Part shown: positions 1-25,286 of the stretch, piece by piece
Layout of the letters: every line of letters begins with the position of its first letter
Position numbering within the stretch: the first letter of the stretch is position 1
Assembly: GCA_964424195.1 (NCBI GenBank)
Contig: CAYRHT010000001.1
Location: forward strand, 135,260-199,259
From: an uncultured Gammaproteobacteria bacterium
GTDB taxonomy: Bacteria > Patescibacteriota > Patescibacteriia > UBA1558 > S5-K13
Direction: 5' to 3'
Length of the DNA stretch: 64,000 nt
Made by a program: the position numbers and the translations under genes
The notes under the pieces: model-generated
Told to the model about the DNA's origin: nothing
What the model saw: the letters and a program-made list of their open reading frames with translations, nothing else
Databases searched by the model: none

Positions 1-527
1 AAATAGAAAGAGTGATAGGAATAGTAAAAGCATATTTAACACGAGTAGGAAATGGACCAGTTCCAAGCGAAGATACTACTGAAAAGGGTGATGATTTACG
101 AGAAAGAGGTGATGAATATGGAACTACTACTGGTCGACCAAGAAGATGTGGTTGGTTAGATTTAGTCCAATTAAAATATTCAGTACGAGTTTGTGGAATG
201 ACTTCTTTAGCAGTTACTAAATTAGATATTTTAGGAGGTATTAAAAAGATTCCAATTTGTGTAAAATATAAATATCAAGATACATATTTAGAAGAAGTAC
301 CAGCTGATTTAAGTGTATTTAATAAATGTGAACCAGTTTATGAATACATGGATGGTTGGGATGACCTTTCTCGAGAAGATTTAGAAAAAATTGTTGAAGA
401 GGGTTATGATGCTTTACCAGAAAATATGAAAAAGTATTTAGATAAAATAGAATCAACTTTAAATGTTCTAATTGAATTAATTTCCTTTGGACCAGAAAGA
501 AAGATGACAATCGAGTTGAAAGTTTAA
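1..527 (+). CDS. purA: Adenylosuccinate synthetase, C-terminal fragment; the 5' end lies outside the window
   Basis: The translation (VKAYLTRVGNGPVPSE...GRPRRCGWLDLV) matches the conserved PurA C-terminal region. The ORF runs off the window start. Confidence 0.85.
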   Translation, partial: IERVIGIVKAYLTRVGNGPVPSEDTTEKGDDLRERGDEYGTTTGRPRRCGWLDLVQLKYSVRVCGMTSLAVTKLDILGGIKKIPICVKYKYQDTYLEEVPADLSVFNKCEPVYEYMDGWDDLSREDLEKIVEEGYDALPENMKKYLDKIESTLNVLIELISFGPERKMTIELKV

Positions 528-564
528 AGTTAAAAGTTGAAAAGTAATAATTAATAACAAATAT

Positions 565-837
565 ATGTCAGAAAAGATTTTTTTAGGTCATGAGAAACCA
601 GGACCAATGGAAGAGGTATCTGGAGAAGAGAAGAATAAATTAGATCTTCGAATAGATCTTCGAAGGAAACATTTAGAATATTATAAAAGCCATCCATGGA
701 TTAAAAAAATGATAGAAATAACAAATCTTTCTCTCGATGATTGGATAAATGAACGAGTAGCTGAAGATGAAGAAAAAAATGAAAGATTAACTAAAGAAAG
801 AGAAGAATTAATGAAAAAAAATTATAATAAAAAATAA
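565..837 (+). CDS. Small charged hypothetical protein inside the pur operon
   Basis: 90-aa ORF tightly packed between purA and purL, with a 4-nt gap to purL. No recognisable motif. Confidence 0.45.
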   Translation: MSEKIFLGHEKPGPMEEVSGEEKNKLDLRIDLRRKHLEYYKSHPWIKKMIEITNLSLDDWINERVAEDEEKNERLTKEREELMKKNYNKK

Positions 838-841
838 AACA

Positions 842-3127
842 ATGAAAGTTACTCAAGAAAATTTAAATAAATATAAAATTGCTTTAACTTTAGATGAAGC
901 TATAAAACTGCGAGATGAAATTTTAAAAAGGGAACCAACTCTAACCGAGCTGGTTGCTTTTGGAATTGAGGGCAGTGAACATTGTTCATATAAGAGTAGT
1001 CGTGATTATTTAAAGCAATTACCTACTGATGCTCCTAATGTAATTTTAGGTCCCAAAGAAGATGCCGGAATTATTCGAATCGCTGAAGGTTGGGGAGTGG
1101 TAATGGCTCATGAATCACATAATCATCCTTCTCAAGTTGTTCCTTATGAGGGAGCAGCAACAGGTATCGGTGGTATTGTACGAGATGTGCTTTGTATGGG
1201 AGCTAAAGTAATTGCTGTGTTAGACGGTCTTAGATTTGGAGATATTGAAAGAAATCATACTCAATGGATTCAATCTGGAGTAGTTTCAGGAATTTGTGGT
1301 TATGGAAATCCAATTGGAGTAGCAAATATTGGTGGTGATCTATATTACAATAAATCTTACAATGATAATTGTTTAGTTAATGTGGGGGCTATGGGTTTAA
1401 TTAAAGAAGATGAAATTATTCATTCTTTTGCTCCGAAAGATGCCGAAGGACTTAATTATATTCTTCTAGGTAAGCCAACAGATAATAGTGGTTTTGGTGG
1501 AGCTAGTTTTGCTAGTTTTGAATTAGATGAGAAAGACAAAGAATCGAATAAAGGTGCAGTTCAAGAACCAAACGCTTTTTTAAAGAGACATATTTTTGAA
1601 TCTACTTACGACTTATTTAAAATTTTAAAAGAAAAGAATTTATTAGATAAAATTGGTTTTAAAGATCTAGGAGCTGGTGGAATATTATGTTCTACAGTTG
1701 AAATGGCTGACCATGCTGGTTACGGAGCACTTATTGACTTAGATAAAGTTCATGTTGGTATGGATAATTTAGAACCTTATGTAATTCTTTCTGCAGAAAC
1801 TCAGGAAAGATTTATGTGGGTAGCTGATGATGAAGTCACGGAGTTAATTTTAAAACATTATAATGAGAAATGGGCTTTACCAGAAGTTTCTCGAGGAGTA
1901 AGAGCTTCAGTAATTGGTAAAATTCAAAAAGGAAATTATCAAGTTAAGTATAAAGGAGAAATAATTTTAGATGCTAAAGCTAATGATGTTACTGAAGGAT
2001 TAAAATATGATCGACCAGTGCAAGAAATTAAATATGATTTAAGTGAACCAGGCATTAAAGTAGAAGATTATAATGAAGAGTTGATGAAATTATTGAAATC
2101 AGAAAATATTGCTAGTCGAAAGTCAGTTTATGAAAAATATGACAAACAAATTCAAGGCATAACTCATATTGAGTCAGGTGAAGCTGATGCGGGAGTAATG
2201 AAACCTTTAATTGATGAAAATTTAAATACGGGAATTGCTTTTTCTATGGACGGAAATTCTCGTTATGGAGAAATATCTCCTTATTGGCAGGGAGCTAATG
2301 CTGTTACAGAAGCAATGAGGAATGTAGCTGCTGTGGGAGCTATTCCTTGGGGATTAACTGATTGTTTAAATTATGGTAATCCAGAAAAACCAGAACAAAT
2401 GTGGCAATTTGCGGAAGGAATTAAAGGTGTAGCAGATGCAGCCAAGAATATTCATTTAAAAACCTATCCTGATTCACCAACTCCTTTTGTATCTGGAAAT
2501 GTGAGTTTCTATAATCAGTCTAAGAATCAATCTATTAATCCATCAGCAGTTATTATTTGTTTAGGAAAGCTAGAGGATTATCATCAAGCGATTACTATGG
2601 ATATTAAAAAATCAGATAGCAATTTATATTTAATTGGTCCTCGGAAAAATGAATTAGGAGCTTCTGAATTTTATAACCTCCACGATGAATTAGGAGCTAA
2701 TGTTCCTCAGTCAGATTTCAAAGAGGTAGAAAAAGAAATTTATGCTTTAACTGATTCTATCGAGCAAGGTTTAGTATTATCAGCTCATGATATTTCCGAA
2801 GGTGGTTTAGCTGTTACTCTAGCAGAGATGATTATTACTAGTAAAAACAAACTTGGTTTAGAAGTTAATTTAGATAAAGTATCTGAACTTGATTTAAACA
2901 CTGTCCAAAAACTATTTTCCGAAACTGGTGGTTTTGTAATTGAAGTTAGTTCAGAAAACGATGAAAAACTCAAAGAAGTATTTAAAAACAGAGGAGTAGA
3001 ACTTTATAACCTAGGAAAAACAAATGAGAGCAAAGAATTAAAGATTGTAGATAAAGAAGAAATTATTAATTTGAAAGTTGATCAGATGCACGATGCCTGG
3101 TCAAATTCTTTAAGATCAAAATTATGA
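842..3127 (+). CDS. purL: Phosphoribosylformylglycinamidine synthase subunit PurL
   Basis: 761 aa. Contains the PurL motifs GPKEDAGIIRI and AHESHNHPSQVVPYEGAATGIGGIVRD. Confidence 0.93.
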   Translation: MKVTQENLNKYKIALTLDEAIKLRDEILKREPTLTELVAFGIEGSEHCSYKSSRDYLKQLPTDAPNVILGPKEDAGIIRIAEGWGVVMAHESHNHPSQVVPYEGAATGIGGIVRDVLCMGAKVIAVLDGLRFGDIERNHTQWIQSGVVSGICGYGNPIGVANIGGDLYYNKSYNDNCLVNVGAMGLIKEDEIIHSFAPKDAEGLNYILLGKPTDNSGFGGASFASFELDEKDKESNKGAVQEPNAFLKRHIFESTYDLFKILKEKNLLDKIGFKDLGAGGILCSTVEMADHAGYGALIDLDKVHVGMDNLEPYVILSAETQERFMWVADDEVTELILKHYNEKWALPEVSRGVRASVIGKIQKGNYQVKYKGEIILDAKANDVTEGLKYDRPVQEIKYDLSEPGIKVEDYNEELMKLLKSENIASRKSVYEKYDKQIQGITHIESGEADAGVMKPLIDENLNTGIAFSMDGNSRYGEISPYWQGANAVTEAMRNVAAVGAIPWGLTDCLNYGNPEKPEQMWQFAEGIKGVADAAKNIHLKTYPDSPTPFVSGNVSFYNQSKNQSINPSAVIICLGKLEDYHQAITMDIKKSDSNLYLIGPRKNELGASEFYNLHDELGANVPQSDFKEVEKEIYALTDSIEQGLVLSAHDISEGGLAVTLAEMIITSKNKLGLEVNLDKVSELDLNTVQKLFSETGGFVIEVSSENDEKLKEVFKNRGVELYNLGKTNESKELKIVDKEEIINLKVDQMHDAWSNSLRSKL

Positions 3128-4047
3128 CAACAACATATAAAGATGCTGGCGTAGATATTGATGCTGGCGCAGAAGTGGTAAAAAGAATTAAGAAAATGAT
3201 TCCTAAGGTTGGTGGCTTTGGGGGAATGTTTGAATATGAAGGAATGATTTTTGTACAAAGTATTGATGGTGTCGGAACTAAAATGAAATTAGCTTCTCAA
3301 TTTGATCGTTGGGAAACAATGGGGCGAGATATAGTTAGTCATTCTTGTTTAGATATTATGTGCCAAGGTGCTACTCCAAAAACTTTTATGGACTATATTG
3401 CTGGGGCAAAAATTGATCCAGCAGTAATTGAGAAAATAGTTACAGGTATTGTTAATGAATGTCAGGAAAATGATATTTCTTTAGTTGGTGGAGAAACTGC
3501 TGAAATGCCTGGAGTTTATGCTGAAGGGGAATATGATTTAGCAGGAGCAATTATGGGAGTAATGAAAAAAGATGAAGAAATAACTGGTGAGGATATTAAA
3601 GCTGGTGACAAAGTATATGGTTTAGCTTCTATCGGTTTACATACCAATGGCTATTCTTTAGCTCGAAAAGTTTTAGAAACAGAAATTGCTGATTCTAATA
3701 TGGAAATTGTAGATCAATTATTACAACCTCATCAGAATTATTTAAAAGAGGTTAAAGAGTTAATTAAAAAATACGATATTAAAGGAATTGCTCACATAAC
3801 TGGTGGTGGATTTTTGGATAATATCCCACGAATTTTACCAGAAGGTGTGGGGGTAGAAATTAAAAAAGGAGAGTGGCCAATTTTACCAATCTTTAAAACT
3901 ATTCAAGAAAAAGGAGATGTCCCAGAAATGGATATGTATCGAACATTCAATATGGGAATTGGTTTAGTTTTAATTTCTGAAGATGAATTACCAATATATA
4001 AAATAGGGGAAGTAGTTGAAGGGGATAAGCAAGTTAAATTAATTTAA
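3124..4047 (+). CDS. purM: Phosphoribosylformylglycinamidine cyclo-ligase (AIR synthetase)
   Basis: N-terminus YKDAGVDIDAGAEVVKRIK is PurM-like. ATGA start/stop overlap with purL. Confidence 0.9.
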   Translation: MTTTYKDAGVDIDAGAEVVKRIKKMIPKVGGFGGMFEYEGMIFVQSIDGVGTKMKLASQFDRWETMGRDIVSHSCLDIMCQGATPKTFMDYIAGAKIDPAVIEKIVTGIVNECQENDISLVGGETAEMPGVYAEGEYDLAGAIMGVMKKDEEITGEDIKAGDKVYGLASIGLHTNGYSLARKVLETEIADSNMEIVDQLLQPHQNYLKEVKELIKKYDIKGIAHITGGGFLDNIPRILPEGVGVEIKKGEWPILPIFKTIQEKGDVPEMDMYRTFNMGIGLVLISEDELPIYKIGEVVEGDKQVKLI

Positions 4048-4052
4048 AAATT

Positions 4053-6257
4053 ATGTATAAAATAGCAGTATTACAATTTCCAGGAACTAATTGTGAATAT
4101 GAAGCTCAAAGAGCTGTAAATAACTCTGGAATGCAAGGAGAATTTTTTAGATGGAATCAAAATGCAGAAGAATTAGATAATTATGATGGCTATGTCGTGG
4201 CGGGAGGATTTTCTTACGAAGATCGATCCCGAGCTGGAATAATTGCTTCTTTAGATCCAATCATGAAAAAGATTAAAGAAGAGGCTGAAAAAGGAAAACC
4301 AATTATTGGAATTTGTAATGGTTGTCAGATCTTAATGGAAACTGGTTTAGTGCCTGGTTTAGAAAACAATGCTTTGGGTGGAGCTCTAGCTTTAAATACT
4401 AGAGCTCAAGATGGCAAAGTCATTGATACTGGATATTATAACGAGCAAATTTACATTAAAAACCAAACCGAGAATCGTTCTGCTTTTAATTTAGAAACAG
4501 ATAAAAATCATCACTTTAGATTACCAATTGCTCATGGAGAAGGAAGATTTGTTTTAGAAGAAGAATTATTAAAAGAATTACAGGAACATAATCAAATAGT
4601 TTTTAGATATTGTGATGCTCAAGGAGAAGTTAAAAATGAATATCCAGTAAATCCTAATGGTACTACTGATAATATTGCGGGAATTTGTAATAAAAGAGGA
4701 AATGTTTTAGCTTTAATGCCTCATCCTGAGAGAGTAGCAGAGGGACAATTTATTTTTGATTCAATGAAAAAATACATTGAAGATAATTCTAAACTTTCAG
4801 AAGCAGATTATAAATTAGAATATTCTCAGGAAATCAAAAAACCAGAAGCATATTCTAAGCCGGAGAATTCTACAGAACTATTAGTGGATATGATAATTAC
4901 TGATAATGAAGCTGTAACTGTAGAAAATGCTTTGAAACAATCCGGATTTGAAGGCGTAGAAATTAAAAAGAAAGTATATTGGAATGTTGAAGCAGATAAT
5001 CTAGATCTAGATGCTTTAGTTAAATCAGGGGAGTTATTAAATACTAATAAAGAGAATGTAATAGAGAAATTAGAAGATGGATATTTTAATCTTTTAGTAA
5101 TGTATAAGGGTGATGCTGAAGGCAAAGGAAAATTAGCTACTCTAAAAAATAAATTAGGGTTTGATAGTATTGAAGATGTTCAGAAAGGAATTTTGTGGCA
5201 AATCAAATGCAAGGAAGAGGATCTAGAGAAAATTTTAGCTACCAATATATTTTATAATCCTTTTTCACAAGATTATTTTAACTATAAATTCAAATATATG
5301 AACAAAGAAGAGATAATAAAAAACAATTTAAAAAATACTTTAACTGAAATTAATATTCCCGAGCTAGGAGAAAAGAAAATTGGTAAAGTTAGAGACACTT
5401 TTTTTAAAGATAAACAAATTATTTTAGTTACTACTGATCGACAGAGTGCTTTTGATAGAGTGTTAGCTGCTATTCCATTTAAGGGACAAGTTTTAAATCA
5501 AACATCAGCTTGGTGGTTTAAACAAGTCGAAGATATTATTCCAAATTCAGTTATCTCTACTCCTGATCCAAATGTAGTTATTCAAAAAAAATGCCAAGTA
5601 TTCCCTTTTGAAGTAATTGTGCGTGGTTATTTAACTGGTTCTACTTCAACTTCTGCTTGGACTAATTATGAAAAAGGAGTCCGAAATTTATGTGGTAATA
5701 AATTGCCAGACGATATGTGGAAGAATCAAAAATTTGAGAAGAATATTATTACTCCGAGTACTAAATTTGAAGAACATGATCGAAATATCACTCCAGACGA
5801 TATTATCAATGAAAATTTTGCCACCAGAGAAGAATGGAAGTACATTTCTCAGAAAGCTTTGGAAGTTTTTACCAGAGGACAAAAGATTGCTAAAGAACAT
5901 GGTTTAATTTTAGTAGATACCAAATATGAATTTGGTAGAGATGAGGAAGGAAATATCATGATTATTGATGAGATCCATACTCCTGATTCTTCTCGTTATT
6001 GGTTAGCTAATAATTATCAAGAAAATATTGATGAAGGAAAAGAACCAGATAATATTGATAAGGAATTTTTAAGATTATGGTTTAAAGAAAATTGTGATCC
6101 TTATCAGGATGAGAAATTACCACCAGCTCCAGATGAGTTAGTAATTGAACTTTCAAAGAGATATATTCAACTATATGAAATGATTACCGGAGAAGAGTTT
6201 AAATTTCCGGAAGGCGATGTTGAAGAAAGAATTAAAAATAATTTAAAAAATATATAG
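4053..6257 (+). CDS. purQSC: Fusion protein: PurQ glutaminase, two tandem PurS-like repeats, and PurC (SAICAR synthetase)
   Basis: N-terminus MYKIAVLQFPGTNCEYE is class I GATase PurQ. The middle has two segments of about 80 aa resembling PurS (ITDNEAVTVENALKQSGFEGVEI..., LKNKLGFDSIEDVQKGILWQIK). The C-terminus is PurC (ILVTTDRQSAFDRV, FEVIVRGYLTGS). Confidence 0.8.
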   Translation: MYKIAVLQFPGTNCEYEAQRAVNNSGMQGEFFRWNQNAEELDNYDGYVVAGGFSYEDRSRAGIIASLDPIMKKIKEEAEKGKPIIGICNGCQILMETGLVPGLENNALGGALALNTRAQDGKVIDTGYYNEQIYIKNQTENRSAFNLETDKNHHFRLPIAHGEGRFVLEEELLKELQEHNQIVFRYCDAQGEVKNEYPVNPNGTTDNIAGICNKRGNVLALMPHPERVAEGQFIFDSMKKYIEDNSKLSEADYKLEYSQEIKKPEAYSKPENSTELLVDMIITDNEAVTVENALKQSGFEGVEIKKKVYWNVEADNLDLDALVKSGELLNTNKENVIEKLEDGYFNLLVMYKGDAEGKGKLATLKNKLGFDSIEDVQKGILWQIKCKEEDLEKILATNIFYNPFSQDYFNYKFKYMNKEEIIKNNLKNTLTEINIPELGEKKIGKVRDTFFKDKQIILVTTDRQSAFDRVLAAIPFKGQVLNQTSAWWFKQVEDIIPNSVISTPDPNVVIQKKCQVFPFEVIVRGYLTGSTSTSAWTNYEKGVRNLCGNKLPDDMWKNQKFEKNIITPSTKFEEHDRNITPDDIINENFATREEWKYISQKALEVFTRGQKIAKEHGLILVDTKYEFGRDEEGNIMIIDEIHTPDSSRYWLANNYQENIDEGKEPDNIDKEFLRLWFKENCDPYQDEKLPPAPDELVIELSKRYIQLYEMITGEEFKFPEGDVEERIKNNLKNI

Positions 6258-6258
6258 T

Positions 6259-6756
6259 ATGGAAATTCTAGATGTTATTAATATAAAAGATGAGGTTATA
6301 GGAGAAGCTAGTAAGGATGAATGTCATCAAAGAGGATTAAGACATAGAAGTGTTTTTGTATTTATATTTGATAATAATGATAATTTAATTCTACAAAAAA
6401 GAAGTAGTAAAAAAAAGATAAGACCCAATAAAATAACAGCTTCCGCTTGTGGTCATGTAGTGAAAGGAGAGAATTATTTAAAAGCTGCTGAAAGAGAATT
6501 ATTAGAAGAGCTGGGCATTAAAACAAATCTAATAGAAGTTTTAAGAACAATCGGTCCTTATGATCAAGACAAAGAGAATATTGTTTTATATGAAGGTCAT
6601 TATGAAGGAGATTTAGATTTTAATAAAGAAGAAATAGCTGAAATTATCAAAATGAGTGTAAATGATATAAAGGATAAATTGGAAGAAAAAGTCTGGAATT
6701 TTGGTTCAAGTTTTAAAAAAGTATTTTTAGAATATATAAATAATAAAAATATATGA
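6259..6756 (+). CDS. Nudix hydrolase
   Basis: Nudix box GHVVKGENYLKAAERELLEELGI, matching Gx5Ex7REUxEExGU. Confidence 0.75.
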   Translation: MEILDVINIKDEVIGEASKDECHQRGLRHRSVFVFIFDNNDNLILQKRSSKKKIRPNKITASACGHVVKGENYLKAAERELLEELGIKTNLIEVLRTIGPYDQDKENIVLYEGHYEGDLDFNKEEIAEIIKMSVNDIKDKLEEKVWNFGSSFKKVFLEYINNKNI

Positions 6757-7142
6757 AAGCAATAATAATCATGGGATCAGAATCTGATAAAGATTTTGTC
6801 CAAAAAATTACAACAAAATTAAGTGAATTAAAAATTGAGTTTGAGGAGCATGTAGCTTCTGCTCATAAAAATCCTAAAGAAGTATTAGAGATTATTGAGA
6901 AAAATAATGAGTCCGATGATAAATTATGTTATATTACAGTTGCCGGAAGAAGTAATGCTTTGTCAGGTTTCACAGCTGCTAATGCTAAACACCCTGTCAT
7001 TGCTTGCCCTCCTTTGAAGGATAAAATGGATTATATGGTAAATATCCATTCTACTCTCCAAATGCCCTCAAAAGTGCCTGTAATGACTGTAATTGACCCA
7101 GGAAATGCAGCTTTAGCAGTAAGTAGAATCTTAAACTTATAA
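6753..7142 (+). CDS. purE: N5-CAIR mutase / PurE family protein (short)
   Basis: IIIMGSESD, SAHKNP and AGRSNALSG align to the PurE motifs IVMGSKSD, SAHRTP and GGAAHLPG. Confidence 0.8.
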   Translation: MKAIIIMGSESDKDFVQKITTKLSELKIEFEEHVASAHKNPKEVLEIIEKNNESDDKLCYITVAGRSNALSGFTAANAKHPVIACPPLKDKMDYMVNIHSTLQMPSKVPVMTVIDPGNAALAVSRILNL

Positions 7143-7146
7143 AAAT

Positions 7147-8472
7147 ATGGATTCATTAAATAGTATTTGTCCTTTAGATGGACGTTATCAAAAAGACCTG
7201 AAGATTCTTCAGGAGTATTTTTCAGAAAGCGCTTTAATTAATTATCGGGCCGAGGTAGAAAAGAAATATTTAATAGCTTTATTAAAATTATTAAAGAAAG
7301 CTAATGCTACTGAATTAAAGAAAATTGAAAATATTAAAATTGATTCAGCTAAAGTTAAAAAAATTGAGAGCATTACTAATCACGATGTTAAAGCAGTAGA
7401 GTATTATTTAAAAGAGGAGTTAAAGAAATTAAAATTTAGTGATGATATTTTAGAGCTAGTACATTTTGCTTTAACTTCTGAGGATATAAATAATTTAGCT
7501 TATTCTTTAATGTTTAAAGACGCTTTAGAAAAAGCCTATCTTCCAGAATTAAATAAGACTATTAAAGAATTGAAAAAGCTAGCTCAGAAGCATAAAGCTC
7601 AGACAATTTTAAGCATGACCCACGGACAGCCAGCTACTCCAACAACACTTGGAAAAGAAATGGCTGTTTTTGTTTATCGTTTAAATAGACAATTAAAGTT
7701 TTCTCCTTTGCTAGGAAAATTAGCAGGAGCTACTTCTAATTGGGCTGCTCATTATGTCGCTTATCCAAAGATTGATTGGTTTAAATTTAGTGAAAAATTT
7801 GTGAAGTCTCTCGGCTTAGAATTAAATCCTTTAACTATCCAAATTGAATCACATGATAGTTTAGCTGAGAATCATCAGCAAGTTATTAGAATAAATAATA
7901 TTCTTAAAGATTTTTCTCGAGATATGTGGCTATATATCTCCCGAGGGATTTTTAAACAAAAGGTGGTTAAGGGTGAAGTTGGTTCCTCAACTATGCCTCA
8001 TAAAGTAAATCCAATTAGATTTGAAAATGCGGAAGGTAATCTCGGAATGAGTAATGCTATCTTTGATTTTATGGCTAATAAATTACCAATTTCTCGAATG
8101 CAAAGAGATCTTTCTGATTCTACAGTATTAAGAAACCAAGGTTTAGCTTTAGGATATAGTTTTTTAGCTCTACAGAATTTAGTCAAAGGTCTAGCTCGAG
8201 TAGAAGCTAATAGTATAAAGATCAAAGAGGAATTAGATAATAATTGGGAAGTTTTAGCTGAACCAATTCAAACTGTATTAAGAAAATTAGGATATTCTGG
8301 AGCCTATGAAAAATTAAAGGAATTAACTAGAGGTAAAAAATTAAATCAAGAAATCCTAACTGAGTTTATTGATGACTTGAAGATACCTCAAGAAGAAAAA
8401 GAACAATTGAAAAAATTAACACCATTTAATTATAATGGTATTTCATCTAAATTAATTAAATATATTAAATAA
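7147..8472 (+). CDS. purB: Adenylosuccinate lyase
   Basis: N-terminus CPLDGRYQKDL is PurB-like. Fumarase/lyase family signature near GSSTMPHKVNP. Confidence 0.9.
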   Translation: MDSLNSICPLDGRYQKDLKILQEYFSESALINYRAEVEKKYLIALLKLLKKANATELKKIENIKIDSAKVKKIESITNHDVKAVEYYLKEELKKLKFSDDILELVHFALTSEDINNLAYSLMFKDALEKAYLPELNKTIKELKKLAQKHKAQTILSMTHGQPATPTTLGKEMAVFVYRLNRQLKFSPLLGKLAGATSNWAAHYVAYPKIDWFKFSEKFVKSLGLELNPLTIQIESHDSLAENHQQVIRINNILKDFSRDMWLYISRGIFKQKVVKGEVGSSTMPHKVNPIRFENAEGNLGMSNAIFDFMANKLPISRMQRDLSDSTVLRNQGLALGYSFLALQNLVKGLARVEANSIKIKEELDNNWEVLAEPIQTVLRKLGYSGAYEKLKELTRGKKLNQEILTEFIDDLKIPQEEKEQLKKLTPFNYNGISSKLIKYIK

Positions 8473-8476
8473 TATT

Positions 8477-9955
8477 ATGTGTGGAGTGGTCGGAATATTT
8501 GGTAATCAAGAAACCAGAGTAAGTTTAGAGCTTTATGATTCTTTAATTGCTTTACAGCATCGAGGACAAGATTCAGCTGGGATTATAACTCTCAATGATG
8601 GTTTTCATTTACATAAGAAATTAGGATTAGTTCGTAATGTTTTTAATGAAGAAGTTCTTTCTCGTTTAAGAGGTAATATGGGAATTGGACATGTCCGTTA
8701 TTCAACAGTTGGTGATGGGACTGCAAATGATGCTCAACCATTTTTAGCTAGTTCTCCCTATGGAATAGCTATAGCTCATAATGGTAATGTAACTAATTTT
8801 GAAAAACTTAAGAAAGAATTAGCTGAAAAAGATTTACGACAAACTAATTCTGGTTGTGATGTAGAAATAATTTTGAATGTTTTTGCTAGTGCTTTAGCGA
8901 AACAAAAAGAGGGAGATTTTAAAGAGCAAGTTTTTAAAGCAGTAGCAGAAGTTCACCAAAGAGTTCAAGGGAGCTATTCAGTAGTAGTAATCATTGCTGG
9001 TAAAGGAATGGTAGCTTTTCGAGATCCTTTAGGAATTAAACCTCTGGTAATTGGTAAACGAGGAGAAGAATATATATTTGCTTCAGAGAATGTAATGTTT
9101 ACTACATTAGGATTTGAATATCAGGGAGATGTCCAAGCTGGTGAATGTATTTTTCTTGATCAAGAGAGTAAATTACATCGGAAGTTAATTACTAAAAAAA
9201 CTCATTGTCCTTGTATTTTTGAACATGTTTATTTCGCTCGACCAGATGCATTGATTGATAATGTTAGTGTTTACAAATCTCGTTTACGAATGGGTAATAA
9301 ATTATCAGAAAAGATTAAACCTTTGATGGATGAATTAAAAATAGATGTAGTAGTCCCAGTTCCTAGTACTTCTACTACCACAGCTTTAACTTTAGCCTAT
9401 GACTTAGGAGTTAAATACCGAGAAGGATTAATGAAAAATCATTTTATTGGTCGAACATTTATTATGGAGAGTCAAGAAAAAAGAAAAAAGTCAGTTCGTT
9501 ACAAACTATCTCCCGTAGAATTAGAAATTAAAGACAAGAATGTTTTATTATTAGATGATAGTATTGTTCGAGGAAATACTTCTAAAGAAATAGTGAGACT
9601 TCTGAAAGAATGTGGAGCTAAAAAAGTATATTTTGCTGTAGCTGCTCCACCAATTAAATTTCCTTGTGTCTATGGAATTGATATGCCAACTCGACAAGAA
9701 TTAATTGCTCATAATAAAGAGAGTATGGAAGAAATTAGAAAAGAGATTGGAGCTGACTTTTTAATATATCAAGAACTTGATGATTTAGTTGATTGTGTTC
9801 ATGAGGGTAATCCGGAAGTTAGAGAATATTGTACAGCTTGTTTCTCTGGAAAGTATCCAACTAATATTTCAGCAGAAGAGTTGTTAGAACTAGAAGAAGA
9901 GAGACTGGTAGTTCGGAAGAAACAAAAAGAACAACAAATGAAAATATTTAAATAA
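8477..9955 (+). CDS. purF: Amidophosphoribosyltransferase
   Basis: N-terminal MCGVVGIFG Ntn-amidotransferase start, followed by a PRTase domain. Confidence 0.92.
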   Translation: MCGVVGIFGNQETRVSLELYDSLIALQHRGQDSAGIITLNDGFHLHKKLGLVRNVFNEEVLSRLRGNMGIGHVRYSTVGDGTANDAQPFLASSPYGIAIAHNGNVTNFEKLKKELAEKDLRQTNSGCDVEIILNVFASALAKQKEGDFKEQVFKAVAEVHQRVQGSYSVVVIIAGKGMVAFRDPLGIKPLVIGKRGEEYIFASENVMFTTLGFEYQGDVQAGECIFLDQESKLHRKLITKKTHCPCIFEHVYFARPDALIDNVSVYKSRLRMGNKLSEKIKPLMDELKIDVVVPVPSTSTTTALTLAYDLGVKYREGLMKNHFIGRTFIMESQEKRKKSVRYKLSPVELEIKDKNVLLLDDSIVRGNTSKEIVRLLKECGAKKVYFAVAAPPIKFPCVYGIDMPTRQELIAHNKESMEEIRKEIGADFLIYQELDDLVDCVHEGNPEVREYCTACFSGKYPTNISAEELLELEEERLVVRKKQKEQQMKIFK

Positions 9956-9959
9956 AATT

Positions 9960-18682: not shown

Positions 18683-20539
18683 ATGACAGATTTAGCAGAT
18701 TTGCTTAAGAAGTTTTTAATTAAAACTAAAAAAGCATTCTCTCCAAATACTAGAGCGGATAGTCTTTTAAATAAATCAATTAGATTTGTTAATTTTATTG
18801 TTATCCCTAAAATTAAATCTTTATTCCCTTCTAAATACGATGAAGAGGAAAAATTATTATTCTCTTTATCTAAGAAAAAAATTCCTAGTCGTCAACAACT
18901 AAAACAACTTAAATACTTTTTAAATTACAAAGAGAAAAGAATTGTCTATATTTCTCTATTCTTCTTAGTTTTTTCAGTAGTTTTCTTAGGTGGAAGATTT
19001 TTATGGAAGAATTTAGTGGAAGTTCCTAAATATGGTGGAGAATACACTGAAGCTATAGTTGGTTCTATCCAATATATTAATCCAATTCTTTCTCAAGGTA
19101 ACGATGCTGACCGAGATCTTAGTAGATTAATTTTTTCAGGATTATTTAAGATAAATACTAACGGTGAATTAGAAAATGATTTAGTAGATAAATATCAGAT
19201 TTCTGAAGACCAGAAAACATATATTTTTACTTTGAAGAATAATATTAAATGGCATGATGGTATGGATTTAATTGCTGATGATATTGGTTTTACTTTGAAT
19301 GCTATTCAGAATCCAGAATTTAAGAGTCCTTTGTATAAGACTTTGCAGGGAGTAGGCTATGAGAAGATTTCTGAAAATTCTTTCAAACTTATTCTAGCTG
19401 AACCTTTTAGTCCTTTCATTTCTACTCTAACCTTTGGTATTTTACCAATGCATTTATGGGAGAGTATTAATCCAGAGAATTCTACTTTGACAGAGTTGAA
19501 TAAGAAGCCAATTGGTACCGGACCTTTTATGTACAAGTCATTTAGAAAAGATTCTAGTGGTAATATCAAACAATATACTTTAGTTAATTTTAAGGAGTAC
19601 TATGGTAAACGAGCTTATTTAAAAAGAATAATTTTAAAACTATTTGCTAATTCAGAAATGGCTTTAGAATCTTTGAAGAATAATCAAGTTCAGGGTGTAA
19701 GTTTCTTATCCCAGGATAATTACAAAGATGTAGTTGCTTCAGAGAATTTTAATGTTTATGACTTTAATATGCCTCAGTATTCAGCTTTGTTCTTTAATCT
19801 TAAACAACAAGAGTTATTAAAAGATAGAAGTATTAGAAGAGCTCTTTCTTTAGCAATTAACAAGAAAGAATTAGCTGCTGAATTGGGTTCAGGCTTAAAA
19901 GAAGCTTATGGTCCTCTAGATTTTATCATCGATCCTCAGGAAGATGAATATGATTTAGAAGCGGCAGCTGAATTATTAAAAGAATCGGAGTGGGAAATGA
20001 AAGATAATTTTCTAGAAAAAGATGAAAAGAAATTGGAGATAACTATAACTAGTGTTGATAATAATGAGTATATTAAAATTTTACAATATATTAAAAAACA
20101 ATGGGCAAAGTTAGGAATTATTACTAATTTAGAAATTATTCCCAAGCAAAAAATCTCTCAGATTATTACTGAAAGAGATTACGAAGTTTTGTTAATTGCT
20201 CAAATTTTATCATATGATCCTGATCCATATCCATTCTGGCATTCTTCCCAGACAAAAGTTGGTTTAAATCTTAGTATTTTTGCTAACCAGAATATTGATG
20301 ATATTCTAGAAGAGGCTCGGAAGATTACTTCTTTTGAAGAACGACTTAAAAAATATGAAAATTTTCAAGAAATTCTTAAAAAAGAACATATAGCTATATT
20401 TTTATTCAGACCAACTTATCATTATCCAGTGGATAAAGATTTAAGAGGTATTGATACAAAAGTTATCTATCTTCCATCAGATCGGTTCTCTAATATAGAG
20501 AATTGGTATCTGAAAACTAAAAAAACATTTAAAAAATAA
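18683..20539 (+). CDS. ABC transporter solute-binding protein, family 5 (peptide/nickel type), membrane-anchored
   Basis: N-terminal TM helix, then SBP_bac_5-like core (KNNIKWHDGMDLIADDIGFTLN). Confidence 0.75.
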   Translation: MTDLADLLKKFLIKTKKAFSPNTRADSLLNKSIRFVNFIVIPKIKSLFPSKYDEEEKLLFSLSKKKIPSRQQLKQLKYFLNYKEKRIVYISLFFLVFSVVFLGGRFLWKNLVEVPKYGGEYTEAIVGSIQYINPILSQGNDADRDLSRLIFSGLFKINTNGELENDLVDKYQISEDQKTYIFTLKNNIKWHDGMDLIADDIGFTLNAIQNPEFKSPLYKTLQGVGYEKISENSFKLILAEPFSPFISTLTFGILPMHLWESINPENSTLTELNKKPIGTGPFMYKSFRKDSSGNIKQYTLVNFKEYYGKRAYLKRIILKLFANSEMALESLKNNQVQGVSFLSQDNYKDVVASENFNVYDFNMPQYSALFFNLKQQELLKDRSIRRALSLAINKKELAAELGSGLKEAYGPLDFIIDPQEDEYDLEAAAELLKESEWEMKDNFLEKDEKKLEITITSVDNNEYIKILQYIKKQWAKLGIITNLEIIPKQKISQIITERDYEVLLIAQILSYDPDPYPFWHSSQTKVGLNLSIFANQNIDDILEEARKITSFEERLKKYENFQEILKKEHIAIFLFRPTYHYPVDKDLRGIDTKVIYLPSDRFSNIENWYLKTKKTFKK

Positions 20540-20613
20540 TATAAACAAGTAGAAGTTAATGAAGACACAAATCTTTGGGTCTCTGTTAGATTTCTATTTT
20601 AAACAAATAAATT

Positions 20614-22368
20614 ATGATTAAGAAAAAACAATTAAAGAGAGGCCCTGTTAAACACAGACCTGCTCATAACAAAAAACAAATAAATACCAAGGTCAAAACT
20701 TTTGACCATGGTAAACTTAAGATTGTTGTATTAGGCGGAAACGAAGAAGTTGGTCGAAATATGACAATCTTAGAATATGAAAATGATATTATTATCATTG
20801 ACATGGGAATTCAATTCCCAGAAGAAGATATGCCTGGAATAGATTTTATTATTCCAAATATTGAATATTTGAAAACAAAGAAGAAGAACATTAGAGGAGT
20901 TGTAATTACTCACGGACATTTAGATCATATTGGAGCAATTCCATATCTAATTCCAGAACTGGGCAATCCAGTAATTTACAGCGCTCCTTTAACATTGGGA
21001 TTAATTAAAAAAAGACATGAAGAATTCAAAGATCTTCCGGCTTTAAACCTTCAAGCAGTGACTCCTGATGACACAATAACTCTAGGAACTTTTAAAGTAT
21101 CATTCTTTGCAGTTAGTCACAATATTCCAGCTTCAATGGGAATTATCGTTGATACTCCTTTAGGAAAAGTAGTACATAGTGGTGATTTTAAACTTGATTT
21201 TGATGGACCAGTACGAGATATGCCAGAAGTTTCCAAGATTGCTAAGTTAGGAGAAGAAAATGTTCTAGCTTTAATGTCTGATTCAACTAATGCTCCTCAA
21301 TCAGGTCATCAAATTTCTGAATCAGAGATTCAAGGTAACCTATTTAATATTATTAGAAATGCTAAAGGTCGAGTTATTATCGGAACTTTTTCATCTCTAT
21401 TGAATAGATTGCAACAAGTTTTTGAAGCTGCTGAAAAATTGAACAAGAAAATATTGATTGATGGTTACAGCATGAAGACTAATGTAGAAATTGCTCATCA
21501 ATTAGGATATTTAAGCTTCAAGAAAGATACTTTTATTACTGAGAAGCAATTAAAAGAATATCCAGACAATCGAGTAGTAATTTGTTGTACTGGTGCTCAA
21601 GGAGAGGACAGAGCTGTTTTAATGAGAATTGTAAACAGAGATCACCGTTTCTTAGAAATTGGTAAAAACGATACTGTAGTCTTTTCATCTTCAGTTATTC
21701 CTGGAAATGAAAGATCAGTTCAAAGATTAAAAGATTCCTTATATCGACAAGGTGCAGAAGTTATTCATTATCAAATGATGGATGTTCATGCTGGTGGTCA
21801 TGCTAAAAAAGAGGATTTAAAATTAATGATTAATTTAGTTAATCCAAAATATTTTATTCCGATTGAAGGAAATCATTCTTTTTTACATATTCATGCTAAA
21901 TGGGCTACTGAAGCTGGTATTGATCCTAAGAATATTTTTATCGCTGACAATGGTCAAATAATTGAATTTACTAAACTTGGTGGAAAGTTAACTAACAAAA
22001 AGATTCCAGCTGATTATGTATTTGTAGATGGTTTAGGAGTAGGAGATGTTTCTCATATCGTACTTCGAGACCGGAAACAAATGTCAGACGATGGTATGAT
22101 TGTTGTTATTTCTACCATTAGTGCTAAAACTGGAAAGCTAATTCATTCTCCTGATATTATTTCTCGAGGTTTTGTGTATATGAAAGAGAATAAAGAATTA
22201 ATCGAAAAGACTAGAAAAAGAGTAAAACAAATTATGCAATCCAATACTGATAAATCTATGGCTAATGATATGTTTATTAAAAACAAGATTAGAAATCAAA
22301 TTGGTAATTTACTTTACAAAGAAACTGAGCGAAGACCTATGGTCTTACCAGTAATTATTGAAGTCTAA
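20614..22368 (+). CDS. rnj: Ribonuclease J
   Basis: Metallo-beta-lactamase motif HGHLDHIGAIPYL, beta-CASP region and RNase J C-terminal domain. 584 aa. Confidence 0.9.
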   Translation: MIKKKQLKRGPVKHRPAHNKKQINTKVKTFDHGKLKIVVLGGNEEVGRNMTILEYENDIIIIDMGIQFPEEDMPGIDFIIPNIEYLKTKKKNIRGVVITHGHLDHIGAIPYLIPELGNPVIYSAPLTLGLIKKRHEEFKDLPALNLQAVTPDDTITLGTFKVSFFAVSHNIPASMGIIVDTPLGKVVHSGDFKLDFDGPVRDMPEVSKIAKLGEENVLALMSDSTNAPQSGHQISESEIQGNLFNIIRNAKGRVIIGTFSSLLNRLQQVFEAAEKLNKKILIDGYSMKTNVEIAHQLGYLSFKKDTFITEKQLKEYPDNRVVICCTGAQGEDRAVLMRIVNRDHRFLEIGKNDTVVFSSSVIPGNERSVQRLKDSLYRQGAEVIHYQMMDVHAGGHAKKEDLKLMINLVNPKYFIPIEGNHSFLHIHAKWATEAGIDPKNIFIADNGQIIEFTKLGGKLTNKKIPADYVFVDGLGVGDVSHIVLRDRKQMSDDGMIVVISTISAKTGKLIHSPDIISRGFVYMKENKELIEKTRKRVKQIMQSNTDKSMANDMFIKNKIRNQIGNLLYKETERRPMVLPVIIEV

Positions 22369-22428
22369 CCACCTTGCTTTATTATTTAGTTTAATTTAAG
22401 GTATAATGAAATTATAAATATAAAATAT

Positions 22429-24204
22429 ATGAGACGAGAAAGTTCTTTAATTAAAGATTTTTCTAAAGAAAAAAATCAAGAAAATAGAGATAAAACAGCT
22501 CAAGATATTAGGTCTAAAAGAACTGAGTATTTTTCTAATAAAGAAGAAAGAAAAGAATGGCAGGGTGAAAAAGATAATTTGCAAGAAGACATGGAATCTA
22601 GTGACTTAGAAATTCAAGAAAAAGTTGAGTCATTAAATGACCTAAGGGATGATATAGAAAGATTATCTAGTAATTTACCTAAAAAGCTTTGGAATCATTT
22701 TAAAATAAAGAATATAAAGTCAAAATTAGCTATTGGTAAAAAATCTTATGAGGAATTAAAAACTTGGCACGATGGATTATTAGAACAAGATAATGTTTTA
22801 GAATCTAATTTATCAGAAGAAAATATTTCTGACGGAGACCAGGAAGCTCAGAAAATTCTAAATAATTTTTATAGAGAACAAGAAAATCAATGGGCTAATA
22901 GTGAATATAATAAAGAAGATATAAATAAACACTTTTCTGAAGAAAATTTAGCTTCTTTATCAATAGAAGACTATATTTTGCTTTTAAAAAGATTTCCTGG
23001 AAATATGGTTACTCATGTTACTCGACAAGGAATTAGAGATCATACTGGTCATATGTATCATACAGCTGGAAAGGGCGAATATTCAGATGGTTTTAAACAA
23101 ATATTAGAGTCTGGCAAGTTGTTTTCGATATTAAATGATAATTTAACAGAAAAAGAAAAAAGGAATTTGATTTCCGAATTTTTATTATTAGAAGAATGCG
23201 AAAATAGAGAAGAAGCATTGGAAAATTTAGAGGCGACCTTAGGTAGAGTAGGTGGACATTATAGCGACAGGACATCTGTTCATTTCGCTACAGAAGAAGT
23301 TGCTGATAAATTTTATGGAGGCGAGAAGGGAAATGAAATATTTTTTACTTATCCTTCTCTCTATATATCTTCTCAATATTCTTTTCAGGGGAATCTTGTG
23401 GAAGGGCAGGGTCATGAACATAATGATCAATGGGTCTGGATGAAGGAAGAAGAAAAAGGTATGAATATAAACGCAGGTATTGTTTTTATTCCCAAAGAAT
23501 CTCAGGTTGATAAAAGGACTGGTTCGGTATATGAATTAGACGAAGATAGTGATCCTATTATTAATCAAGAATATAAAGATCTTGTGAAAAACTTTATAGA
23601 TTCTGAAGATTTTTCTAAATTGTCTGATGAAATTATGGAAATTACTAATAATAGTGAAATAGATTATCTTATTCGCTTAGACGAAGCTACTTTGTCTGAG
23701 GAAGACAGAGAAAAACTAAATGTTCTAAATCCCTTTAGAAAAGAAATAGAAAATACTTTTAACATTAAAGATAGGAAATTACAGAACGTTCTATTTGGTT
23801 ATCAAAATCTGGATTCTTTTCAAGAATTTAGAAAAGAAAATATAGATAAATTAGACTCGCCTGATGAAAAAATAGAAAAGGCTTTAAATAAGAATGGTGT
23901 TTTATATAAAAGAGCAGAAGATGTTGTTGATTCTGAGAAATATTGGGAAGATTATTTTAAAAAATATCCTGGCAAGAAGCCATCAAAAATTGTTTATTAT
24001 AAAGCGAAAACTCCAACAATTGCATTAGAGAAGTGGAGAGAAGATAATTCCATTAAATCTGAACAAAACAATATTTATTTAGAATCTTCAGAAAATAGAA
24101 CAGATAGTACTTTCCCAGAAGTGAATGAAGGGAGAGATGAATTATATAATTTAGCGATAGAAGTTATTAATGACCATTTTGATAAAAAAGAAAAAGTGGC
24201 TTAA
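22429..24204 (+). CDS. Large acidic hypothetical protein
   Basis: 591 aa, E/D/K-rich with coiled-coil-like N-terminus. TATAAT -10 at about 22400. No assignable domain. Confidence 0.5.
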   Translation: MRRESSLIKDFSKEKNQENRDKTAQDIRSKRTEYFSNKEERKEWQGEKDNLQEDMESSDLEIQEKVESLNDLRDDIERLSSNLPKKLWNHFKIKNIKSKLAIGKKSYEELKTWHDGLLEQDNVLESNLSEENISDGDQEAQKILNNFYREQENQWANSEYNKEDINKHFSEENLASLSIEDYILLLKRFPGNMVTHVTRQGIRDHTGHMYHTAGKGEYSDGFKQILESGKLFSILNDNLTEKEKRNLISEFLLLEECENREEALENLEATLGRVGGHYSDRTSVHFATEEVADKFYGGEKGNEIFFTYPSLYISSQYSFQGNLVEGQGHEHNDQWVWMKEEEKGMNINAGIVFIPKESQVDKRTGSVYELDEDSDPIINQEYKDLVKNFIDSEDFSKLSDEIMEITNNSEIDYLIRLDEATLSEEDREKLNVLNPFRKEIENTFNIKDRKLQNVLFGYQNLDSFQEFRKENIDKLDSPDEKIEKALNKNGVLYKRAEDVVDSEKYWEDYFKKYPGKKPSKIVYYKAKTPTIALEKWREDNSIKSEQNNIYLESSENRTDSTFPEVNEGRDELYNLAIEVINDHFDKKEKVA

Positions 24205-24231
24205 AATTAATTTATAATAAGATATAAGATT

Positions 24232-25221
24232 ATGAGCGATAAGAAAATATTATTTTCAGGAATTCAGCCAACAGGTGATTTGCATATTGGAAATTACCTA
24301 GGAGCTTTAAAGAATTGGGTTGATTTACAAGATCAACATGATTGTTTTTATTCAATTGTAGATTTACATGCAATTACTGTTGATTATGATCAAGTAAGCT
24401 ATCAAGAACAAATTCTAAATACAGCAATTGATCTATTAGCTATTGGTATTGATCCTAAAAAATCAACTTTGTTTGTTCAATCTAAAGTAACTCAACATAC
24501 AGAACTTACTTGGTTATTCAATACTTTAGTTCCGATGGCAGAATTACAAAGAATGACTCAGTTTAAAGACAAGTCTCGACAAAACTTTACTAATATTAAT
24601 ATGGGACTTTTTGATTATCCAGTATTACAAACTGCTGACATTTTACTCTATAAAGGTGAACTAGTTCCAGTTGGTGAAGATCAATTACAACATTTAGAAT
24701 TAGCTAATACTATCCTTAGAAAGTTTAATAACAAGTTTGGAGAATATTTTCAAAAGATTGATCCAATTGTCAGTAAGAGTGCTCGAGTAATGTCATTACA
24801 AGAACCACAGAATAAAATGTCTAAGTCTCTAGGAGCTTCTAACTATATTGCTTTAAGAGATGATGCAGACACTATTCGAAAAAAGATTATGAGTGCTAAG
24901 ACAGATGCTGGTCCTCAAAAGGATGGACATATGTCTCCAGGAGTTGATAATCTATTCACTCTTTTAGAAAGCTTTGCTGATGAAAAAGTAATTAAGAAGT
25001 TTAATTTAGATTATCATAATGGTGAATTAAAATATTCAGAACTTAAAGCAGAGTTAGCAGATGCTATCATTAATACTCTAAAACCTATTCAAGCTAAGAT
25101 AGCTAAATTAGAGAAGGATAAAGATAAAGTGAAAAAGATTCTAGCAGATGGTGCTCAGAAAGCTCAGAAAATTGCTGAAGCTAATATGTTAGAGATTAAA
25201 GAGAAAATGGGATTAATTTAA
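24232..25221 (+). CDS. trpS: Tryptophan--tRNA ligase
   Basis: Class I aaRS HIGH-like motif (TGDLHIGNYLGA) and KMSKS motif. 329 aa. Confidence 0.93.
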   Translation: MSDKKILFSGIQPTGDLHIGNYLGALKNWVDLQDQHDCFYSIVDLHAITVDYDQVSYQEQILNTAIDLLAIGIDPKKSTLFVQSKVTQHTELTWLFNTLVPMAELQRMTQFKDKSRQNFTNINMGLFDYPVLQTADILLYKGELVPVGEDQLQHLELANTILRKFNNKFGEYFQKIDPIVSKSARVMSLQEPQNKMSKSLGASNYIALRDDADTIRKKIMSAKTDAGPQKDGHMSPGVDNLFTLLESFADEKVIKKFNLDYHNGELKYSELKAELADAIINTLKPIQAKIAKLEKDKDKVKKILADGAQKAQKIAEANMLEIKEKMGLI

Positions 25222-25284: not shown

Positions 25285-25286
25285 GT

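What the first reader, a model, noticed from the sequence alone, without database searches (positions are those of the whole stretch)
4053..6257. Single 734-aa polypeptide fusing PurQ, two tandem PurS-like domains and PurC
PurQ (glutaminase of FGAM synthetase), PurS (normally an 80-aa protein acting as a dimer) and PurC (SAICAR synthetase) are usually separate genes in the order purC-purS-purQ. Here they are one ORF in the order Q-S-S-C with two PurS-like repeats, as if the PurS dimer had been hard-wired. This is an unusual architecture that could scaffold a FGAM-synthetase complex with PurL (encoded just upstream) and couple two non-consecutive pathway steps.
Basis: partly seen in the sequence, partly recalled or inferred. 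Interest (0 to 1): 0.5.

Follow-up and report, generated by a model that had tools for sequence, protein, structure and literature searches.

The report
PurQ–tandem-PurS–PurC fusion protein
A small-genome (Patescibacteria) bacterium makes one real 734-aa protein that joins the glutaminase of purine step 4, a built-in copy of the usual two-subunit PurS adaptor and the step-7 enzyme PurC; the glutaminase–adaptor part is an old, widespread and apparently undescribed layout, and the PurC part was added very recently by loss of a stop codon.

Summary
ORF 4053..6257 (+) encodes 734 aa. It comprises PurQ (aa 1-245), a connector, two PurS-like repeats (aa 273-342 and 343-412), a 3-residue bridge and PurC (aa 416-734).

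It is not an artefact. The exact ORF is on at least 24 contigs, and every segment has dN/dS of 0.07-0.22.

Two events of different age are involved:
- PurQ plus tandem PurS is old and common: 488 clusters at 50 % identity, mostly Patescibacteria, usually about 420 aa.
- The PurC join is very recent. Relatives with 83-88 % nucleotide identity have a stop (TAA) and 6 nt before purC's ATG, in the same frame.

Similar Q-SS-C and Q-SS-C-PurE fusions arose separately elsewhere.

The most likely function is a glutaminase-plus-adaptor subunit for the smPurL encoded at 842..3127, with an active PurC tethered to it. Channelling between the two steps is unproven.

This is a new variant of a known kind and of moderate interest.

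The parts
4053..6257 (+). Whole ORF, 734 aa plus stop: PurQ, connector, PurS-like repeat 1, PurS-like repeat 2, 3-aa bridge, PurC
   Evidence: The exact protein is on at least 24 public contigs. Full-length AF2 model: pLDDT 93.3, pTM 0.67.
4053..4787 (+). PurQ glutaminase domain (aa 1-245), with nucleophile motif GICNG at aa 86-90 and HPE at aa 224-226
4788..4868 (+). Connector (aa 246-272) between PurQ and the first PurS-like repeat
   Evidence: Variable in length and sequence across homologues. pLDDT is about 87-91 in the full-length model.
4869..5078 (+). PurS-like repeat 1 (aa 273-342), with family-wide motifs LIITDNEA, HWE and SGELxNxNKE
   Evidence: Pfam PurS 23.3 bits against 22.2 on the isolated linker. 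hhalign against PDB PurS: probability 72 %, E 3.4e-5. Invariant D284, N285 and K333. dN/dS 0.14-0.22.
5079..5288 (+). PurS-like repeat 2 (aa 343-412), with motifs LLVRYxDD, KKGxLW and ILxNPYSQ
   Evidence: hhalign against repeat 1: probability 93.9 %, E 1.5e-7. Against PurS: E 6.4e-4. NF005019 PurS matches aa 347-408 at E 0.0025. Invariant W382. dN/dS 0.07-0.15.
5289..5297 (+). Fusion bridge TTC AAA TAT (F413-K414-Y415). It occupies the place of TAA TGT ATT (stop plus 6-nt spacer) in the unfused relatives L001 and L008.
   Evidence: The unfused P0266, from the same 90 % cluster, ends at ...NYK, which corresponds to K412.
5298..6257 (+). PurC, SAICAR synthetase (aa 416-734 plus stop). It starts at the retained ancestral purC ATG.
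842..3127 (+). smPurL (761 aa), the inferred partner of the PurQ-tandem-PurS part
   Evidence: NF002290 710 bits against 648. FGAR-AT_linker plus 2x AIRS/AIRS_C. No N-terminal PurS-like extension.

Best explanation
The gene encodes a bifunctional purine-biosynthesis protein.

The N-terminal 412 residues are the glutaminase PurQ, covalently followed by a tandem duplication of PurS. That tandem folds into the same pseudo-dimeric adaptor that two free PurS chains form in the PurL-PurQ-PurS2 complex, and that the N-terminal domain forms in large PurL. This part is inferred to bind the separately encoded smPurL (842..3127) 1:1. The tandem module would bridge glutaminase and synthetase and help form the ammonia tunnel, replacing a free purS gene, of which there is none in the window.

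The two repeats share only about 18 % identity. That fits each half having specialised for a different contact, as in lgPurL.

The C-terminal 319 residues are an intact SAICAR synthetase (PurC). It became attached very recently, when base substitutions removed the stop codon between two adjacent, in-frame genes. The PurC join most likely gives co-expression or tethering at best, or is neutral, and does not provide substrate channelling.

Shown here: domain identities, fold, internal duplication, age and mechanism of the fusion, reality of the ORF, and purifying selection.

Inferred: complex formation with PurL, replacement of free PurS, and activity of both enzymes.
For: Domains.

Internal duplication and PurS homology. 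Pfam PurS hits fall on repeat 1 in P0257 and on repeat 2 in P0258.

Literature:
- The lgPurL N-terminal domain equals a PurS dimer, and PurS is required (PMC3815217, PMC3261824).
- The N-terminal domain is a non-catalytic adaptor central to ammonia-tunnel formation (PMC7124931).

No stand-alone PurS turns up in a six-frame search of the 64-kb window, which holds an otherwise complete pur operon: purA, L, M, QSSC, E, B, F, D, N, H.

Family:
- 488 clusters at 50 % identity, with the module at about aa 260-420 of proteins of about 420 aa.
- Stand-alone tandem PurS genes sit right after purQ in L011.

Fusion history:
- Unfused syntenic relatives and the junction sequence.
- Unfused alleles within the same 90 % cluster.
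- The window protein nests among 8 unfused proteins in the tree.

Reality of the ORF: at least 24 contigs, up to 952 kb, plus a 1-SNP variant in L007.

Selection: dN/dS 0.07-0.22 in all four segments.
Against: - pTM of 0.67 leaves the domain arrangement uncertain.
- Sequence methods alone are weak. A family profile against PDB sequences found nothing. hhalign against E. coli lgPurL is not significant, E 0.1. Repeat 2 against PurS reaches only 28 % probability.
- Only 64 kb of a genome of roughly 0.95 Mb was seen, so a free purS elsewhere is not excluded.
- Recurrent Q-SS-C(-E) fusions in other lineages could mean the PurC join is selected and not neutral.
Confidence: 0.8

Rival explanations
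1. The PurC join is adaptive. The protein (and the Q-SS-C-PurE versions in relatives) is a covalent mini-metabolon that keeps several purine enzymes together, fixes their stoichiometry, or lets one activity regulate another.
Against: - FGAM synthesis and SAICAR synthesis are not consecutive and share no intermediate.
- The closest relatives, including one with 94 % identical GyrA, are unfused.
- The bridge is 3 residues created by point substitutions.
- Tightly packed genes in the same frame make stop-loss fusions easy, so recurrence may reflect opportunity and not selection.
- The junction has pLDDT of about 80 and the whole model has pTM 0.67, so no confident docking of PurC is predicted.
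Confidence: 0.2
2. The single ORF is an assembly, sequencing or frameshift artefact joining two separate genes.
For: Close relatives have two genes only 6 nt apart.
Against: - The exact 734-aa product is on at least 24 contigs from JGI, NCBI, ENA and Logan, with 19 index blocks in the 0.2-1 Mb contig class.
- A separate assembly that differs by one SNP has the same junction.
- The junction differs from relatives by several substitutions with no length change, so no frameshift is involved.
- Both sides are under purifying selection.
Confidence: 0.02
3. The 160-residue middle region is not a PurS-type adaptor. It would be a different small alpha/beta domain pair (for example ACT-, PII- or RRM-like ligand-binding modules) with a regulatory role unrelated to PurL.
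For: Single-sequence and profile searches against PDB sequences find no PurS. Ferredoxin-like folds are common, and weak Foldseek hits to ACT, PII and RRM proteins appear (ranks 19-40).
Against: - Those hits have E >= 0.07 and TM of about 0.2, whereas lgPurL hits have probability 1.0 and TM 0.65.
- PurS is the only Pfam family hit repeatedly, 21 of 40 members.
- The module is always attached to or adjacent to purQ.
Confidence: 0.04
4. The retained internal ATG (nt 5298) is still used, so the cell makes free PurC as well as, or mostly instead of, the fusion. The fusion protein would then be a minor by-product.
For: The ancestral purC ATG is kept. Genes in this operon lack Shine-Dalgarno motifs, and the A/T-rich sequence before the internal ATG looks like that before real starts.
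Against: Without a stop codon, ribosomes translating purQ-SS must read through into purC, so the fusion is necessarily made whenever purQ-SS is translated. No data on internal initiation are available.
Confidence: 0.3

Closest known systems
PurL-PurQ-PurS2 three-protein FGAM synthetase (B. subtilis; T. maritima PDB 3D54)
   Different: There is no free 80-aa PurS. The two PurS units are one chain, have diverged to about 18 % identity, and are covalently attached to the C-terminus of PurQ. The gene order is L-M-Q/SS-C, not C-S-Q-L.
N-terminal domain of large PurL (Salmonella 1T3T/4LGY, human PFAS 9N9W)
   Different: In lgPurL the module sits at the N-terminus of the synthetase (order SS-L-Q). 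Here it follows the glutaminase (order Q-SS) and PurL is a separate protein. No significant sequence similarity to the E. coli N-terminal domain was found; by sequence the module is closer to PurS.
Archaeal mdPurL (Brown et al. 2011, PMC3261824)
   Same: It is another case where a PurS-like region of about 200 aa is fused to a partner and free purS is usually absent.
   Different: In mdPurL the fusion partner is smPurL (at its N-terminus), not PurQ. I did not compare it at the sequence or structure level.
PAICS / PurCE bifunctional enzymes of eukaryotes
   Same: PurC is fused to another purine enzyme. Relatives of this protein continue into PurE in the same C-to-E order.
   Different: In this window PurE is a separate gene (6753..7142), with a Nudix gene in between. 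Here PurC's fusion partner is the step-4 glutaminase/adaptor, a combination I did not find described.

Membership tests
PurQ (FGAM synthase I, TIGR01737 / PF13507) | Score above the curated equivalog cut-off over the full glutaminase domain | tested here: met
   TIGR01737 228.5 bits against 177.8, aa 3-231; GATase_5 E 2.4e-50.
PurQ (FGAM synthase I, TIGR01737 / PF13507) | Class-I amidotransferase catalytic triad (Cys nucleophile, His, Glu) | tested here: met
PurS (PF02700 / TIGR00302) | Profile score above the gathering threshold | tested here: inconclusive
   Repeat 1 passes only when the linker is scanned alone (23.3 against 22.2; partial match to profile positions 12-47 of 77) and fails in the context of the full protein (17.7). 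Repeat 2 scores only 18 bits against the 122-bit cut-off of NF005019. Family members pass on either repeat.
PurS (PF02700 / TIGR00302) | PurS fold of about 80 aa (beta-alpha-beta-beta-alpha-beta) | tested here: met
PurS (PF02700 / TIGR00302) | Free small protein that homodimerises | tested here: not met
   The two units are covalently linked, diverged (about 18 % identity) and part of a 734-aa chain. So this is PurS-derived and not a PurS in the strict sense.
lgPurL N-terminal (PurS-dimer-like adaptor) domain | Single-chain pseudo-dimer superposable on the N-terminal domain of 1T3T-type structures | tested here: met
lgPurL N-terminal (PurS-dimer-like adaptor) domain | Located N-terminal to the FGAM synthetase domain in one chain, with the FGAR-AT linker | tested here: not met
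   The module follows PurQ. PurL is a separate 761-aa protein that carries its own FGAR-AT_linker.
lgPurL N-terminal (PurS-dimer-like adaptor) domain | Contacts both glutaminase and synthetase and supports the ammonia tunnel | not testable with these tools
   This needs a complex model or structure, or biochemistry. The role is taken from PMC7124931.
PurC (SAICAR synthetase, NF009251 / PF01259) | Score above the curated equivalog cut-off over the full length | tested here: met
PAICS-type PurC-PurE fusion | PurC and PurE in one chain | tested here: not met
   In the window purE is a separate ORF (6753..7142), after a Nudix gene. The feature is met only in relatives such as P0002, P0005 and P0036.

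The most novel reading that the evidence does not exclude
PurQ plus tandem PurS would be a fourth, independently evolved format of FGAM synthetase, alongside smPurL+PurS+PurQ, mdPurL and lgPurL. In it the PurS dimer was hard-wired by duplication and attached to the glutaminase and not to the synthetase. This would be either a convergent re-invention of the lgPurL adaptor or a surviving intermediate on the route to it. In addition, the repeatedly arising Q-SS-C and Q-SS-C-PurE chains would be selected bacterial 'mini-purinosomes' that physically organise steps 4, 6 and 7.
Probability: 0.15. Interest if true: 0.65.

Novelty: new variant of a known kind. Interest (0 to 1): 0.42.

Why it matters
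It gives a natural, covalently fixed PurS dimer attached to the opposite partner from the one in large PurL. That supports the stoichiometry of two PurS folds per PurQ and PurL independently. It also offers a permuted system for asking what the non-catalytic adaptor does in ammonia-tunnel formation.

For annotation, hundreds of 'PurQ' proteins of about 420 aa in Patescibacteria and other MAGs carry an unrecognised PurS function. Pathway reconstructions that report purS as missing in these genomes are therefore probably wrong.

The PurC join is a clean, datable example of gene fusion by stop-codon substitution between tightly packed in-frame genes, caught while still polymorphic among close relatives.

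Tried and rejected
- phmmer of the linker, and hmmsearch with a 40-sequence linker profile, against all PDB sequences found no PurS. HMM-to-single-sequence searching is too insensitive here; profile-profile and fold methods were needed.
- hhalign of the linker profile against full-length E. coli PurL was not significant (E 0.1). The best stretch lay in the N-terminal domain, Ec 89-127.
- The 90-aa ORF at 565..837, which sits where purS might be expected next to purL, has no PurS or any other match. Rejected as a PurS.
- P0245 (1142 aa) was suspected to be a Q-SS-PurL single chain. It is Q-SS joined to an SMC/AAA-type protein.
- The search for related loci with the linker alignment failed because no conserved 7-10-column stretch exists. 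The single-protein scan of reference genomes returned only 3 loci, with unreliable organism labels.
- The afdb50 fold library was unavailable.
- The promoter scan found fewer sites than in shuffled sequence and was uninformative.
- Exact look-ups of window proteins gave no organism names. Taxonomy was obtained from GyrA homologues instead.
- Five literature searches found no description of a PurQ-PurS-PurS protein. The library lacks most subscription journals, so absence is not proof.

Full report
**1. The observation**

The ORF listing and translation confirm an uninterrupted ATG-to-stop ORF at 4053..6257 (+) of 734 aa. It lies in a one-strand, tightly packed operon: purA (3' part), a 90-aa orphan ORF, purL (842..3127), purM (3124..4047), this ORF, a Nudix gene, purE, purB, purF, purD, purN and purH, with guaA further on.

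Pfam and NCBIfam place PurQ at aa 3-231 (GATase_5 E 2.4e-50; TIGR01737 228.5 bits against a cut-off of 177.8). They place PurC at aa 426-733 (NF009251 434.3 bits against 371). Between them the full-length scan gives only two sub-threshold PurS hits, one in each half: PF02700 at aa 282-313 with 17.7 bits, and NF005019 at aa 347-408 with E 0.0025.

**2. Is the middle really two PurS units?**

I extracted the region from 104 homologues. It has two blocks with parallel motifs:
- repeat 1: LIITDNEA…AL..xG…R..HWEI…SGELxNxNKE
- repeat 2: LLVRYxDD..G..K..L…I..IKKGxLWxI…ILxNPYSQ

The supporting tests were as follows:
- Profile-profile comparison of the halves gives probability 93.9 %, E 1.5e-7, at 18 % identity.
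- Scanned alone, the window's linker passes the Pfam PurS gathering score (23.3 against 22.2). 21 of 40 diverse family members hit PurS (best E 7.6e-10), and no other family is hit by more than one member.
- Against a profile of four authentic PurS sequences verified in the PDB, repeat 1 gives E 3.4e-5 and repeat 2 gives E 6.4e-4. Reversed-profile controls give E about 0.25.
- AlphaFold2 on aa 262-422 with the 40-sequence alignment gives pLDDT 94.6 and pTM 0.87, with two consecutive beta-alpha-beta-beta-alpha-beta units.
- In Foldseek against the PDB, ranks 1-18 are all Salmonella lgPurL or human PFAS (probability 1.0, TM 0.61-0.65 over about 150 columns). Everything else has E >= 0.07.

[quoted passage not shown] So the module is a covalent PurS pseudo-dimer.

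Sequence-only methods against PDB sequences or E. coli PurL fail. The link to lgPurL is therefore structural, while the link to PurS is both sequence-based (weak) and structural.

**3. Artefact or real?**

The exact 734-aa product is recorded on at least 24 contigs (36 index blocks) from JGI, NCBI, ENA and Logan. 19 of those blocks hold contigs of 0.2-1 Mb, for example a 952-kb JGI contig. A further ENA contig (L007) is 99.965 % identical over 2869 nt, differs by one amino acid and has the same junction. dN/dS against two unfused relatives is as follows:

| Segment | dN/dS |
|---|---|
| PurQ | 0.08-0.13 |
| Connector + repeat 1 | 0.14-0.22 |
| Repeat 2 | 0.07-0.15 |
| PurC | 0.10-0.11 |

The ORF is real and all parts are constrained.

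**4. Two events of different age**

(a) Q-SS is old and common.
- A profile of the tandem module finds 488 representatives (50 % clusters) at E <= 1e-3 among 1.84 billion, and 276 at E <= 1e-10.
- In most full-length hits the module lies at about aa 260-420 of proteins of 410-450 aa.
- Sources name these simply 'phosphoribosylformylglycinamidine synthase I', from Patescibacteria, Magasanikbacteria, Komeilibacteria, Veblenbacteria and others.
- Stand-alone tandem-PurS proteins of 145-160 aa also exist. In L011 one lies directly after a 268-aa purQ, overlapping it by 4 nt, and before purE and purC. The order Q, SS, (E), C is therefore a conserved gene order from which fusions arise.

(b) The SS-C join is very young.
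- Syntenic relatives with 83-88 % nucleotide identity (L001, L004, L008) encode a Q-SS of 413-426 aa and a separate PurC of 318-319 aa.
- In L001 and L008 the two genes are in the same frame, separated by TAA TGT ATT. The window has TTC AAA TAT in exactly that place, giving …NYK-FKY-MNKEE….
- Unfused alleles that end …NYK or …KYKI fall within the same 90 %-identity cluster. One comes from a genome whose GyrA is 94 % identical.
- In an NJ tree of the Q-SS part, the window protein nests within eight unfused sequences.

(c) Other Q-SS-C proteins (about 683-758 aa) and Q-SS-C-PurE proteins (about 820-946 aa), at 38-57 % identity, have junctions of 9-64 residues. Several still show the ancestral PurC start motif M-D/N-Y-T…KI. 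Crude parsimony gives at least 10 fused/unfused changes, so I regard at least two independent events as secure.

**5. Mechanism (inferred)**

In the known three-protein enzyme, PurQ makes ammonia, smPurL uses it with ATP to convert FGAR to FGAM, and a PurS dimer is required. In lgPurL the equivalent N-terminal domain is a non-catalytic adaptor whose interface dynamics control ammonia-tunnel formation (PMC7124931).

Here PurQ keeps its GICNG and HPE motifs. smPurL is a normal 761-aa protein with no PurS-like extension. No free PurS is detectable in any frame of the 64-kb window.

I therefore propose a 1:1 complex of PurL with Q-SS, in which the tandem module takes the place of PurS2. Its two diverged halves would be specialised for different contacts, as in lgPurL.

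Steps 4 and 7 share no intermediate, and the join is a 3-residue bridge that is still polymorphic among close relatives. I therefore consider tethering or co-expression, or neutrality, more likely than channelling.

Genes here lack Shine-Dalgarno motifs, and the retained ATG at 5298 has a start-like context. Some free PurC may therefore also be made.

**6. Organism**

The nearest named GyrA homologues are 'Patescibacteria group bacterium' (81 %) and Komeilibacteria, Parcubacteria and Buchananbacteria (about 69-70 %). Together with about 30 % GC and contigs of about 0.95 Mb, this indicates a CPR/Patescibacteria genome that nevertheless carries a complete de novo IMP pathway.

**7. Comparison and novelty**

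Formats of FGAM synthetase described in the papers I could read are lgPurL (SS-like N-terminal domain, L, Q in one chain), smPurL+PurS+PurQ, and archaeal mdPurL (a PurS-like N-terminal extension on PurL). A PurQ with a C-terminal tandem PurS, with or without PurC and PurE, was not found in five full-text searches. The library is incomplete, and the proteins themselves have long been in databases under generic names.

I rate it a new variant of a known kind. It is mechanistically unsurprising to a specialist, since lgPurL already shows a hard-wired PurS dimer. It is useful for annotation, as a permuted natural experiment on the adaptor, and as a datable stop-loss fusion.

Noticed in passing
window 565..837 (+): A 90-aa Lys/Glu-rich ORF lies between purA and purL. 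It has no Pfam, NCBIfam or PDB match and is absent from the same position in the syntenic relatives L001 and L004. It is not PurS-like.
   Followed up: partly
window 6259..6756 (+): A Nudix hydrolase gene (best, sub-threshold, resemblance to YfcD/IPP-isomerase types) is inserted between the PurC end of the fusion and purE. Relative L001 has only a 195-nt gap there.
   Followed up: partly
window 6753..7142 (+): purE is short (129 aa) and carries AGRSNALSG, which from memory is the class II (AIR carboxylase) type signature. No purK is present in the otherwise complete operon.
   Followed up: partly
relatives P0036, P0044, P0047, P0048; P0002, P0005, P0009 etc.: PurC-PurE two-part proteins and PurQ-SS-PurC-PurE four-part proteins occur in related Patescibacteria. 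The C-to-E order is the same as in animal PAICS.
   Followed up: partly
window 5298..6254 (PurC part); P0091, P0111: The PurC part is 58-59 % identical to plant (Arachis, Lotus) chloroplast-type PurC. That is higher than its identity to many bacterial PurC families.
   Followed up: no
L004 4535..4897 and 7248..7799; L006: Close relatives carry a DUF559 endonuclease-like gene between purL and purM and an alpha/beta-hydrolase gene between purQ-SS and purC. The operon seems to tolerate small gene insertions at its junctions.
   Followed up: no
window 1..26000, gene starts: Almost no gene has a Shine-Dalgarno motif; only purN and guaA show GGAG-like sites. Leaders are simply A/T-rich, and many genes abut or overlap by a few bases.
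   Followed up: partly
L008 (CAZAOE010000002.1) and L010 (CAZTBE010000053.1): Reference MAGs carrying close homologues are titled 'uncultured Gammaproteobacteria bacterium' (82 % identity) and 'uncultured Methanosarcinales archaeon' (46 %). Given the GyrA placement in Patescibacteria, at least the first label looks wrong.
   Followed up: partly
window 4826..5125 (-): A 99-aa TTG-start antisense ORF lies inside the tandem-PurS coding region. It is most likely a chance ORF in AT-rich sequence.
   Followed up: no
window 32677..32973 (+): There is a cluster of three tRNA genes: Leu-CAA and two Met-CAT.
   Followed up: no
P0245 (1142 aa): One representative joins PurQ plus tandem PurS to an SMC_N/AAA_23-type ATPase. 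This is possibly a gene-calling or assembly chimera, or an odd fusion.
   Followed up: partly
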